The position numbers were made by a program, and so were the translations under genes. DNA of 64,000 nt from sequence record PV700625; one strand, 5' to 3'. The notes below the pieces were generated by a model, which saw nothing but the letters and a program-made list of their open reading frames with translations, was not told where the DNA came from and did no database searches. Origin of the DNA: Escherichia phage MET-P1-301. Below, piece after piece: positions 50,997 to 51,132 of this stretch; positions within the stretch are counted from its first letter, which is position 1, and each line of letters begins with the position of its first letter.

Positions 50997-51132
50997 ATCT
51001 TTGTAGATAAGCTACCCAGACTTGCTTAAGGTCTGTAGCGATGTGCCTTTTGGGTTTAAATCTAGAATTTACCCTTTCACCCTTTGTGGTCGCATACTCA
51101 CAGGTAAGCTTAATAACTTATCTACAAAGATA
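50997..51132. repeat. 15-bp perfect inverted repeat enclosing a 106-nt loop
   Basis: ATCTTTGTAGATAAG at 50997-51011 and its exact reverse complement at 51118-51132. Confidence 0.8.

What the first reader, a model, noticed from the sequence alone, without database searches (positions are those of the whole stretch)
50997..51132. 15-bp perfect inverted repeat enclosing 106 nt, adjacent to tRNA-Lys
ATCTTTGTAGATAAG and its exact reverse complement are separated by 106 nt that contain a further nested hairpin (GCUACAGAC / GUCUGGGUAGC). A perfect 15-bp stem is unusually long for a terminator and suggests a stable processed RNA, an RNase III substrate, or a site-specific recombination or endonuclease target.
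Basis: seen in the sequence. Interest (0 to 1): 0.5.

Follow-up and report, generated by a model that had tools for sequence, protein, structure and literature searches.

The report
Long-stem small RNA in phage tRNA operon
The inverted repeat is the closing stem of a conserved, roughly 145-nucleotide non-coding RNA in the tRNA operon of a Felix O1-like phage; it lies in a row of small RNAs, one a tRNA mimic, beside a gene for a Ro60-like RNA-binding protein, which points to an undescribed phage counterpart of the Ro60/Y-RNA particle.

Summary
The repeat is real and longer than reported. The arms are 50993-51014 and 51114-51135 (22 nt). Their one DNA mismatch is a U·G pair in the minus-strand RNA, the strand of all 26 tRNAs.

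It is the terminal stem of a structured RNA (about 50989-51139, minus strand) that ends 4-5 nt before tRNA-Lys(UUU).
- About 250 Felix O1-like and Mooglevirus genomes carry it, in two sequence variants. 12 of 30 pairs show compensatory changes.
- Phages whose neighbouring protein is only 53-62% identical keep a 22-25 bp closing stem of unrelated sequence, plus a 3' hairpin with a 9-nt loop, CUUAAGCAA.
- There is no conserved ORF, no terminator, no second copy and no Rfam match.

Three nucleotides upstream lies a circularly permuted tRNA mimic with YrlA-like topology. It is one of four "CAGCAA modules" in the operon.

At the operon head is a DUF2828/DUF7788 gene whose predicted fold matches Ro60. 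In diverse viral contigs these modules flank that gene on its strand only (81 hits versus 0).

Best reading: a Y-RNA-like partner of a phage Ro60-like protein, cut out of the tRNA precursor. Binding is inferred, not shown. RNase III processing of the stem remains a live rival or complement.

The parts
50989..51139 (-). Whole long-stem ncRNA unit. It runs from 3 nt after the upstream module to the spacer UUUAAU before tRNA-Lys(UUU).
   Evidence: MFE -48.3, z -5.7. Covariance model R1 scores 116.9 bits on the minus strand and 31.2 on the plus strand. Present in 189 + about 60 phage records.
51114..51135 (-). 5' strand of the closing stem P1 (RNA: AAUUAUCUUUGUAGAUAAGUUA).
   Evidence: 7 of 21 P1 pairs have changes on both sides and 99.3% of cells are paired.
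50993..51014 (-). 3' strand of the closing stem P1 (RNA: UAGCUUAUCUACAAAGAUAAUU). It ends 4-5 nt before the tRNA-Lys 5' end.
51011..51039 (-). The core is CAGAC-CUUAAGCAA-GUCUG followed by GG. The 9-nt loop is conserved as CYUWWGCAA in Felix, Moogle and metagenomic relatives.
   Evidence: Stem pairs covary, A-U to G-C and A-U to U-A. It resembles a CAGCAA module without an insert (inference).
51052..51074 (-). Apical hairpin GGGUAAAUU-CUA-GAUUUAAACCC. The AUUCUAGAUU apex is invariant between the two sequence variants and the stem base differs.
   Evidence: Alignments A1 and A5; folds.
51085..51102 (-). Hairpin UGUG-AGUAUGCGAC-CACA. The GAGUAUGCG loop is shared with L015/L098, where the stem is GGGG/CCCC.
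   Evidence: sequence comparison; inference.
51139..51263 (-). Context: a circularly permuted tRNA mimic with YrlA-like topology. Order: closing helix AGACCGU/ACGGUCU, UUACAGCAA motif, anticodon-arm-like hairpin, T arm, closed 'acceptor' hairpin ACUCGGC-AGAU-GUCGAGU, D arm.
   Evidence: The acceptor-like stem has five unrelated sequences in relatives. ARAGORN calls no tRNA here. Rfam tRNA gives only a partial hit of 22 bits.
51284..51349 (-). Context: a simple CAGCAA module (AGACCAA-AUACAGCAA-45 nt-UUGGUCU-GG).
51748..51806 (-). Context: a simple CAGCAA module between tRNA-Met and tRNA-Asn.
51908..51973 (-). Context: a simple CAGCAA module between tRNA-Glu and tRNA-Met.
52312..53726 (-). Context: the Ro60-like protein gene (Pfam DUF2828 + DUF7788; Felix O1 ORF42 'RNA-binding protein') at the head of the tRNA/ncRNA operon. 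In this window a 1-nt deletion splits it into two ORFs.
   Evidence: Pfam. AF2 model pLDDT 89.7. The top 10 Foldseek PDB hits are all Ro60, E 5e-8 to 1e-6. Frameshift.

Best explanation
The inverted repeat is the closing stem (P1, 22-24 bp) of a roughly 145-nt structured non-coding RNA. It is transcribed on the minus strand as part of the phage's polycistronic tRNA operon.

How the RNA is probably released (inferred): RNase P cleavage at the 5' end of tRNA-Lys(UUU), 4-5 nt downstream, together with processing after the upstream module. The long flush duplex then protects both ends.

Where it sits: it is the last unit in a row of small RNAs encoded just downstream of a Ro60-like ring protein (DUF2828/DUF7788). 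The row has four 'CAGCAA modules', one of which carries a permuted tRNA mimic like bacterial YrlA.

Proposed function: it works as a Y-RNA-like partner of that protein. The long stem plus inner loops would serve as a scaffold or gate, and the conserved CUUAAGCAA hairpin would be the likely protein-contact motif. The particle would act on tRNAs or other structured RNAs during infection, for example in quality control, repair, or recruitment of a host exonuclease such as PNPase.

Shown: the structure, its conservation and covariation, the strand, the genomic association, and the protein fold.
Inferred: the processing, the protein binding and the biological role.

My sub-probabilities:
- Functional structured RNA on the minus strand: about 0.93.
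- Belongs to the RNA array associated with the Ro60-like gene: about 0.7.
- Actually bound by that protein: about 0.45.
For: (1) Structure. MFE z = -5.7. RNAalifold on 13 sequences gives 30 pairs, 12 with compensatory changes. 98.4% of cells are paired against 88.5% in shuffles (0/500 shuffles reach this), and about 40% when partners are slid.

(2) Deep conservation of architecture without sequence. Homologues upstream of tRNA-Lys in contigs whose Ro60-like protein is 53-62% identical keep closing stems of 22-25 bp with unrelated sequences, plus the CYUWWGCAA hairpin. Covariance model R1 finds the non-seed homologues L100 (E 1e-4), L016 (6e-4) and L099 (2e-3).

(3) Strand. The IR mismatch is U·G on the minus strand. 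R1 scores 117 bits on the minus strand and 31 on the plus. The sense fold is more stable in 10 of 12 homologues.

(4) Protein. The AF2 model of the DUF2828/DUF7788 protein (pLDDT 89.7) has Ro60 structures as its ten best PDB matches: phage phiLo, D. radiodurans Rsr and X. laevis Ro60, over the full length, TM 0.54-0.65.

(5) RNA-protein association. Strict CAGCAA modules give 81 hits on the gene strand of 83 loci, 0 on the other strand and 0.8 in shuffles. In 75 diverse viral loci, 44 of 58 modules lie within 600 nt of the gene ends, which is 16% of the flank space.

(6) tRNA mimics. Permuted modules in the order T arm, hairpin, D arm, not called as tRNAs, accompany the gene in many loci. This is the topology of YrlA; Y RNAs lie within 4 kb of Ro60 on the same strand, usually two or more per genome, one tRNA-like and one a long hairpin (PMC4201824).

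(7) Links between the IR element and the modules. It starts 3 nt after module 4. Its 3' hairpin, AGAC-CUUAAGCAA-GUCU-GG, mirrors the module core AGACC..UUACAGCAA..GGUCU-GG. In L016 and L023, canonical CAGCA modules are wrapped in similar long outer stems just before a tRNA. A second long-stem element in the window (49282-49371) also holds a mini-module.
Against: - No experiment shows a discrete RNA or any protein binding.
- The Ro60-binding motifs of known Y RNAs (GGUCCGA; GNCGAAN0-1G) are not conserved in the element.
- The Rfam YrlA and Y RNA models do not hit it, even at E <= 10.
- The link between the IR element and the CAGCAA modules rests on adjacency and motif resemblance, not on a statistical test. 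The CYUWWGCAA hairpin was found only in Ounavirinae-like phages.
- In this window the Ro60-like gene carries a frameshift. If that is real, the protein partner is missing in this phage.
- A near-perfect 22-bp duplex would normally be cut by host RNase III, so the mature form could differ from the one drawn.
Confidence: 0.55

Rival explanations
1. The stem is mainly an RNase III processing site, like the long stems that flank 16S and 23S rRNA. Cleavage would separate the upstream ncRNA modules from tRNA-Lys and the downstream tRNAs. The enclosed sequence would be a spacer, or a by-product with no function of its own.
For: The duplex is 22-24 bp and almost perfect, about two helical turns, which is the classic RNase III substrate size (established knowledge of E. 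coli RNase III). Long stems recur just before the first tRNA after a gap: 49282-49371 before tRNA-Leu, 49944-49978 before tRNA-Arg, and L023 5648-5748 before tRNA-Pro. The stem sequence is free to vary as long as pairing is kept.
Against: The interior is not a free spacer. The loops CUUAAGCAA, AUUCUAGAUU and GAGUAUGCG are conserved, and inner helices covary. In distant homologues the stems carry bulges and internal loops, as Y RNA stems do. tRNA operons need no RNase III, because RNase P and RNase E suffice. This rival can hold together with the best explanation, since RNase III could be the enzyme that releases the RNA.
Confidence: 0.2
2. It is a cis-acting leader of tRNA-Lys(UUU). By placing a stable helix flush against the RNase P site, it would control the maturation or level of this tRNA. 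Alternatively it would serve as a decoy for host nucleases that attack tRNA-Lys(UUU), such as PrrC/RloC-type anticodon nucleases.
For: The position immediately upstream of tRNA-Lys(UUU), 0-21 nt, is kept in the window and in L015, L098, L016, L017, L100, L101 and L102. tRNA-Lys(UUU) is the classical target of PrrC (established knowledge). The hairpin CAGAC-CUUAAGCAA-GUCUG loosely resembles the tRNA-Lys anticodon arm CAGA-CUUUUAA-UCUG (read directly from the sequence).
Against: In L099 another hairpin and tRNA-Lys(CUU) lie in between. The hairpin stem covaries freely, so it is not held to the tRNA-Lys sequence. The loop is 9 nt, not 7. Similar long-stem elements precede other tRNAs: Leu, Arg, Pro. 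The conserved position may be plain synteny.
Confidence: 0.1
3. It is a DNA-level element: terminal inverted repeats of a miniature mobile element, a site-specific recombination or homing-endonuclease target, or a cruciform/replication signal.
For: It is a perfect 19-bp inverted repeat. HNH homing endonuclease genes occur in the same tRNA region of Felix O1 relatives. The two interior variants are exchanged between genera, for example DaR-2019b and Seyj1-1.
Against: There is one copy per genome and none elsewhere in the window. No relative lacks it and none shows indels at the arm boundaries. There are no target-site duplications. G·U pairs that would be A·C on the other strand, and better folds on the tRNA strand, argue for RNA. 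The inner hairpins covary, which a DNA site would not require.
Confidence: 0.03
4. It is part of a small protein-coding gene, as some genome records annotate ('hypothetical protein'), or it is an intrinsic terminator.
For: A 113-118 codon ORF (TTG start, 51022-51363, plus strand) overlaps it. Several GenBank records annotate hypothetical proteins here.
Against: No reading frame is conserved. The long antisense ORF of the window is broken in Felix O1, Henu11 and others, where the longest stop-free stretch falls to 31-60 codons and shifts frame. The annotated ORFs differ in strand and position between records. There is no G+C-rich stem with a U-tract, and the terminator scan finds nothing here. 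Twenty tRNA genes continue downstream on the same strand.
Confidence: 0.01

Closest known systems
Bacterial Y RNAs of the second type (YrlB of Salmonella and M. smegmatis, Yrn2 of D. radiodurans) and phage phiLo Yrl1/Yrl2
   Same: Small RNA of about 100-150 nt. Its 5' and 3' ends form a long stem enclosing loops and hairpins. It is encoded about 1.2 kb from a Ro60-type gene on the same strand, next to a tRNA-mimicking Y RNA. It is co-transcribed with tRNAs, as Yrn2 is made with tRNA-Asp and Yrn1 (PMC4201824; PMC12135203).
   Different: The partner protein is not a recognisable TROVE-family member by sequence; it is Ro60-like only by predicted fold. The known Ro-binding motifs (GGUCCGA, GNCGAAN0-1G, 'CGAA') are absent or not conserved. 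The stem is an almost perfect duplex without the conserved bulged helix. The interior is a multi-hairpin junction rather than a pyrimidine-rich loop. No binding data exist.
YrlA (Rfam RF02553), the tRNA-mimic Y RNA. This applies to the neighbouring module at 51139-51263, not to the IR element itself.
   Same: Same order of elements: variable/V hairpin, T arm, closed acceptor-like stem, D arm, all closed by a basal helix. The T-loop UUCGAUU and the D-loop AAUGGUA are tRNA-like. In some relatives the acceptor-like loop carries NCCA, as in M. smegmatis YrlA.
   Different: The Rfam YrlA model does not match at E <= 10. The basal helix carries a different conserved motif (UUACAGCAA on the 5' side, G(G/W)UAA after the 3' strand). 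The partner protein belongs to a different sequence family.
T4 rnaC and rnaD (species 1 and 2 RNAs)
   Same: Small stable RNAs of 119-139 nt encoded inside a phage tRNA cluster and processed from the tRNA precursor. Their function has been unknown for decades (annotation in NC_000866).
   Different: There is no sequence or architectural similarity. rnaC has a 3' T-arm-like hairpin and no long terminal duplex. Neither has CAGCAA or CUUAAGCAA motifs. T4 has no DUF2828 gene in that region.
RNase III processing stems of rRNA operons and T7 early mRNAs
   Same: A long duplex formed by sequences flanking a structured RNA within a polycistronic transcript that also contains tRNAs.
   Different: Here the enclosed RNA is only about 100 nt with conserved loops. 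Cleavage has not been shown. Distant homologues interrupt the stem with bulges.

Membership tests
Y RNA (Ro60-associated ncRNA) | Physically bound by a Ro60 protein | not testable with these tools
   Needs RIP/CLIP or EMSA with the Felix O1 gp42 homologue.
Y RNA (Ro60-associated ncRNA) | 80-150 nt RNA whose 5' and 3' ends pair into a long stem enclosing an internal loop or module | tested here: met
   24-bp closing stem around about 100 nt. It is kept by covariation.
Y RNA (Ro60-associated ncRNA) | Conserved Ro-binding sequence in the stem (GGUCCGA in animals; GNCGAAN0-1G in YrlA/YrlB) | tested here: not met
   No such motif is conserved in the alignments. GCCGAAG occurs only in the Sf18 and Silverhawkium variants, which is probably chance.
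Y RNA (Ro60-associated ncRNA) | Encoded within a few kb of a Ro60 gene on the same strand | tested here: met
   The element lies about 1.2 kb downstream of the DUF2828/DUF7788 gene on the same strand. That protein is Ro60-like by predicted structure only; Pfam TROVE is not detected by sequence.
Y RNA / YrlA (Rfam models) | Match to the Rfam covariance models | tested here: not met
   No hit in the element or its neighbour at E <= 10. Only tRNA hits at gathering score in 12 related loci.
RNase III substrate | About 20 bp or more of mostly uninterrupted dsRNA | tested here: met
   22 contiguous pairs (21 Watson-Crick + 1 G·U) plus 2 G·U.
RNase III substrate | Cleavage by RNase III in vivo or in vitro; absence of antideterminant base pairs | not tested
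   No tool for this. It needs rnc+/rnc- end mapping.
Intrinsic terminator | Short G+C-rich hairpin followed by a U-tract | tested here: not met
   The stem is A+U-rich, the enclosed 'loop' is 99 nt, there is no U-run, and the scan finds no site here.
MITE / IS-derived element | Terminal inverted repeats with several copies, target-site duplication, and presence/absence polymorphism | tested here: not met
   Single copy. Present in every relative retrieved. No duplication at the flanks.
tRNA | Cloverleaf recognised by ARAGORN or the Rfam tRNA model | tested here: not met
   No tRNA is called at 50989-51139.
CAGCAA module (family defined here, associated with DUF2828 genes) | W-G-helix, then WNDCAGCA(A), insert of <= 160 nt, complementary helix, then W'-G | tested here: inconclusive
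   The IR element fails the strict pattern. Its 3' hairpin AGAC-CUUAAGCAA-GUCU-GG looks like an insert-less version. Variant 2 and the L016 homologue carry AUC-UUUGCAG / AUC-UUUCAGCA in the 5' strand.

The most novel reading that the evidence does not exclude
Felix O1-like phages, and thousands of other phages that carry a DUF2828/DUF7788 gene, encode a previously unrecognised ribonucleoprotein system. It would consist of a Ro60-like ring protein plus an array of dedicated small RNAs embedded in the tRNA operon: simple 'CAGCAA' modules, permuted tRNA mimics, and long-stem RNAs such as this one.

The long-stem RNA next to tRNA-Lys(UUU) would be a specialised member that gates or targets the particle. 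The particle would protect, repair or cull tRNAs under attack by host anticodon nucleases, or capture a host exonuclease. That would be a phage-built tRNA-surveillance or anti-defence machine.
Probability: 0.3. Interest if true: 0.85.

Novelty: new variant of a known kind. Interest (0 to 1): 0.68.

Why it matters
Ro60/Y-RNA particles are known from animals, about 5% of bacteria and a few phages. Their RNA partners have been found only next to sequence-recognisable TROVE proteins.

Here a classical typing phage (Felix O1) and its relatives carry a Ro60-like protein that is detectable only by fold. Next to it are a YrlA-like tRNA mimic, several simple modules with a new conserved motif, and this long-stem RNA, all inside the tRNA operon.

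- The protein family is large: at least 2,536 hits in the protein search, and 589 of 600 candidate stretches confirmed in viral contigs.
- The module-gene association is very clean: 81 hits versus 0 by strand.
- If the RNAs bind the protein, the Ro60/Y-RNA paradigm extends widely into phages.
- It would also give a concrete function to 'empty' gaps in phage tRNA clusters, which annotators now fill with spurious hypothetical proteins.
- It would offer a tractable E. coli/Salmonella system for asking what tRNA-mimicking Y RNAs do.

Tried and rejected
- **Rfam.** Searched at E <= 10 on the region and the whole tRNA cluster, and at gathering score on 12 related loci. Only tRNAs and chance-level hits (miRNA, snoRNA, Dictyostelium class I) came back. 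There was no YrlA, Y RNA, tmRNA, GOLLD or ROOL.
- **Coding.** No frame is conserved across 14 relatives.
- **Terminator or promoter at the site.** None found.
- **Repeated or mobile element.** The arms are unique in the window, and every relative retrieved carries the element.
- **T4 rnaC/rnaD.** Fetched and folded; unrelated.
- **Sequence search of the protein against PDB.** Nothing found. Only the predicted structure revealed the Ro60 fold. NCBIfam gave no family, and PHROGs gave only 'RNA-binding protein'.
- **First loose motif scan for modules.** It was swamped by chance hits (729 versus 522 on the opposite strand) and was replaced by a strict pattern.
- **MAFFT alignment of the tRNA-mimic modules.** It misaligned the acceptor-like hairpins of L016 and L017, so no covariance model was built for that module.
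- **Covariance model R1.** With default filters it missed L017 and L101, which were recognised only by position, fold and the conserved hairpin.
- **Literature.** Searches for DUF2828, or Felix O1 with Ro60 or Y RNA, found nothing relevant. Two reviews by Sim and Wolin are not held, so prior description elsewhere cannot be excluded.

Full report
**What the window is.** The region belongs to a Felix O1-like myovirus (Felixounavirus, Ounavirinae). An 800-nt query around the finding matches 295 phage records, and most are Escherichia or Salmonella Felix O1 relatives at 90-99% identity. ARAGORN finds 26 tRNA genes between 46607 and 52147, all on the minus strand. The finding lies in a 427-nt tRNA-free gap between tRNA-Asp (51416-51493) and tRNA-Lys(UUU) (50913-50988). 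RNA-level interpretation therefore has to use the minus strand.

**Observation.** The repeat is real and larger than reported.
- The arms are 50993-51014 and 51114-51135: 22 nt, 95% complementary, 99 nt apart.
- The 19-nt perfect core occurs nowhere else in the window at up to 3 mismatches; 0.09 matches are expected by chance.
- The one mismatch is a U·G wobble in the minus-strand RNA.
- The minus-strand RNA folds to -48.3 kcal/mol with a 24-bp closing stem (z = -5.7, 0 of 200 shuffles as stable). The plus strand is weaker at -43.6.

**Conservation and covariation.**
- The element is present at 94.7% identity or more in 189 phage records.
- A second, much-diverged version occupies the same place in about 60 records: Mooglevirus, Suspvirus and some Felixounavirus.
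- The two versions share the flanks, an apical AUUCUAGAUU and the 3' hairpin. The stems differ by compensatory changes: AAUUAUC/GAUAAUU to AAUCAUC/GAUGAUU, GUAG/CUAC to GCAG/CUGC, and CAGAC/GUCUG to CAAAC/GUUUG.
- On 13 distinct sequences RNAalifold predicts 30 pairs, 12 with changes on both sides.
- The pair count gives 98.4% paired cells against 88.5% in shuffles (0/500 shuffles reach it). A covariation score of 0.38 compares with 0.18 in shuffles, and about 40% of cells pair when the partners are slid by 1-3 columns.

**More distant relatives.** I reached these through the neighbouring protein. In contigs whose protein is 53-62% identical, an element of the same build sits upstream of tRNA-Lys(UUU) (0-21 nt in most; in L099 a hairpin and tRNA-Lys(CUU) intervene).
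- Its closing stem is 22-25 bp with an unrelated sequence (in L016 and L102 internal loops interrupt it, 12-13 bp in the outermost segment), for example AGUUCUAUUUAAUGGGUGUUCUGUG / CGCAGAGCACGCCUUAAAUAGAAUU in L017.
- Its 3' hairpin has the loop CUUAAGCAA, CCUUAGCAA or CCUAUGCAA.
- A covariance model built only from the close group finds three of these independently: L100 at E 1e-4, L016 at 6e-4 and L099 at 2e-3. It scores the window at 117 bits on the minus strand against 31 on the plus strand.
- The sense strand folds better than the antisense strand in 10 of 12 homologues.

Together these results show a functional RNA structure on the tRNA strand.

**What it is not.**
- No reading frame is conserved. 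The 118-codon stop-free stretch antisense to the tRNAs in the window breaks up in Felix O1, Henu11 and others. The 'hypothetical proteins' annotated here in some records differ in strand and position.
- There is no terminator-like site, no tRNA and no Rfam family.
- There is one copy per genome, and no relative lacks it or shows indels at the arm boundaries. Nothing therefore supports a mobile element or a recombination target.

**Surroundings: a tRNA mimic.** Three nucleotides upstream (51139-51263, minus strand) the sequence reads as follows:
- helix AGACCGU;
- UUACAGCAA;
- an anticodon-arm-like hairpin;
- T arm GAAGG-UUCGAUU-CCUUC;
- ACUCGGC-AGAU-GUCGAGU;
- UG;
- D arm GUGU-AAUGGUA-GCAC;
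- helix ACGGUCU.

This is a tRNA whose acceptor stem is closed by a loop and whose ends lie on the anticodon side. The closed 'acceptor' hairpin has five unrelated sequences in relatives: ACUCGGC/GUCGAGU; ACACGU-UACG-GCGUGU; ACCCUUC/GAAGGGU; CGCUCCCA/UGGGAGUG; CGUGGU/GCCACG. The T and D arms stay constant.

This is the topology of YrlA, the tRNA-mimicking bacterial Y RNA with V, T, AS and D stem-loops (PMC4201824). The Rfam YrlA model does not match it, however.

**Surroundings: a Ro60-like protein.** At the head of the operon (52312-53726, minus strand) lies the homologue of Felix O1 ORF42, annotated 'RNA-binding protein'.
- Pfam sees only DUF2828 + DUF7788, and a sequence search of the PDB finds nothing.
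- An AlphaFold2 model from a 53-sequence alignment has pLDDT 89.7 and pTM 0.89.
- Its ten best Foldseek matches in the PDB are all Ro60 proteins: Thermus phage phiLo, D. radiodurans Rsr and X. laevis Ro60. The alignments run the full length, with E 5e-8 to 1e-6 and TM 0.54-0.65. vWA domains follow lower in the list.
- The phage therefore encodes a Ro60-like ring + vWA protein directly upstream of its tRNA operon. The synteny DUF5681 gene, this gene, then the tRNA cluster is kept in distant relatives.

**A family of RNA modules tied to that protein.** Comparing 80 viral contigs that encode the protein revealed a recurring unit:

5'-W-G-(helix)-WUWCAGCAA-(insert)-(complementary helix)-W'-G-3'

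- The insert is either 30-50 nt, A-rich and often carrying further AGCAA repeats, or about 100 nt carrying a permuted tRNA mimic.
- A strict pattern gives 81 hits on the gene strand of 83 loci, none on the opposite strand and 0.8 in shuffles.
- In 75 non-Felix loci, 44 of 58 modules lie within 600 nt of the gene ends, which is only 16% of the flanking sequence.
- Permuted T-hairpin-D units that ARAGORN does not call as tRNAs accompany the gene in L030, L035, L041, L042, L060, L082, L090 and L095/L096. Some have NCCA in the acceptor-like loop.
- Rfam has no family for any of this, and the held literature has nothing on DUF2828 RNAs or on Felix O1 and Ro60.
- The window holds exactly four such modules, all on the minus strand: 51908-51973, 51748-51806, 51284-51349 and 51139-51263. 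The last is the tRNA mimic.

**How the inverted repeat fits in.** The long-stem RNA is the next unit after module 4.
- Its conserved 3' hairpin, AGAC-CUUAAGCAA-GUCU followed by GG, reads like the module core (AGACC..UUACAGCAA..GGUCU-GG) without an insert. UAAGCAA also recurs in the inserts of distant modules.
- In L016 the homologous element contains a regular AAAGAAUC-UUUCAGCA...GAGAUUC module inside an extra outer stem.
- In L023 a canonical module is wrapped in an 18-22 bp outer stem just before tRNA-Pro.
- The window has a second long-stem element (49282-49371, 26-nt arms) just before tRNA-Leu. It encloses AAGGUU-AUUACAGCUU..-GAACCUU.

These links are resemblances and adjacency. They are not a statistical proof.

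**Most likely mechanism.** The operon is probably transcribed from promoter-like sites at 52293-52174 on the minus strand (consensus matches only). RNase P cutting at tRNA-Lys would then leave the RNA with a nearly flush, exonuclease-resistant duplex end.

The architecture, position and neighbours match what is known of Y RNAs. Known Y RNAs have a long terminal stem. There are usually two or more per genome, one tRNA-like and one a long hairpin. They lie within 4 kb of Ro60 on the same strand, and they are co-transcribed with tRNAs.

I therefore propose that it is a Y-RNA-like partner of the phage Ro60-like protein. Binding, processing and role are inferences. Known Ro-binding motifs are absent, so it should not be filed as a member of the Y RNA or YrlA families. 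It is better described as a new variant that probably works like them.

RNase III cleavage of the near-perfect duplex is a serious alternative or complement. A tRNA-Lys-specific leader or decoy role is possible but weakly supported.

**Caveat for this phage.** Relative to Felix O1, the Ro60-like gene in the window lacks one A in an A-run and is split into two ORFs. This may be a sequencing error. If it is real, the RNA would lack its proposed partner here.

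Noticed in passing
window 51139-51263 (minus strand): A circularly permuted tRNA mimic with YrlA-like topology: anticodon-arm-like hairpin, T arm, closed 7-bp acceptor-like hairpin, D arm. tRNA finders do not call it. The acceptor-like stem has five unrelated sequences in relatives. A 7-bp stem could make it an RNase P substrate, as in M. smegmatis YrlA.
   Followed up: yes
window 51908-51973, 51748-51806, 51284-51349 (minus strand); L018-L097: A new recurrent RNA unit, the 'CAGCAA module': helix, WUWCAGCAA, insert, helix, G. It is tightly linked to DUF2828/DUF7788 genes in diverse viral contigs (81 hits on the gene strand, 0 on the other). It is absent from Rfam.
   Followed up: yes
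window 52312-53726 (minus strand): The DUF2828/DUF7788 'RNA-binding protein' has a predicted Ro60 fold. In this window a 1-nt deletion in an A-run (GAGCAAAAAATC in Felix O1) splits it into ORFs of 244 and 227 aa. This may be a sequencing error, a pseudogene or a frameshift site.
   Followed up: partly
window 49282-49371 (minus strand), just before tRNA-Leu(UAG): A second long-stem element: 26-nt arms, 85% complementary, 38 nt between them. It encloses a mini CAGC-type hairpin (AAGGUU-AUUACAGCUU..-GAACCUU). Covariance model R1 hits it weakly (21.5 bits, E 0.04).
   Followed up: partly
window 49944-49978 (before tRNA-Arg UCU), 49282-49371 and 50993-51135: Three stems that precede the first tRNA after a gap share the same base, AUCUUU.../...AAAGAU, followed by an A/U spacer and the tRNA. 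This may be a common processing or binding signal.
   Followed up: no
window 49524-49537 and 49626-49639: A 14-nt inverted repeat (93% complementary) brackets tRNA-Ser(UGA). It would form a helix AAAGUCUUAUUAGG/CCUAAUAAGAUUUU enclosing the whole tRNA.
   Followed up: no
window 51355-51392 (minus strand), just after tRNA-Asp: An 18-bp hairpin CUCCCUUAAAGGGUUCUC/GAGUAUCCUUUAAAGGAG, preceded by a G+C-rich hairpin GAGAGGGCUAUUUAGCCCCUC. Both are conserved in all relatives and are of unknown role.
   Followed up: no
L023 9088-9212: In a more distant 88-kb phage contig, a roughly 30-bp stem encloses a pyrimidine-rich loop between tRNA-Ser and tRNA-Ile. It recalls the 'long hairpin with pyrimidine-rich loop' type of bacterial Y RNA (YrlB, Yrn2).
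   Followed up: no
window 50477-50749 (minus strand): A 90-aa Cys-rich ORF with a weak double-zinc-ribbon hit lies between tRNA-Ile and tRNA-Met. Felix O1 annotates a 161-aa HNH endonuclease (ORF44) at the same place, so this is probably a truncated or variant homing-endonuclease gene.
   Followed up: no
L011 (Seyj1-1) and L004 (DaR-2019b) compared with the window: Some Felixounavirus genomes carry the Mooglevirus-type interior of the long-stem RNA. In Seyj1-1 the outer stem is Felix-type and the inner stem Moogle-type. This is recombination within the stem that keeps pairing.
   Followed up: partly
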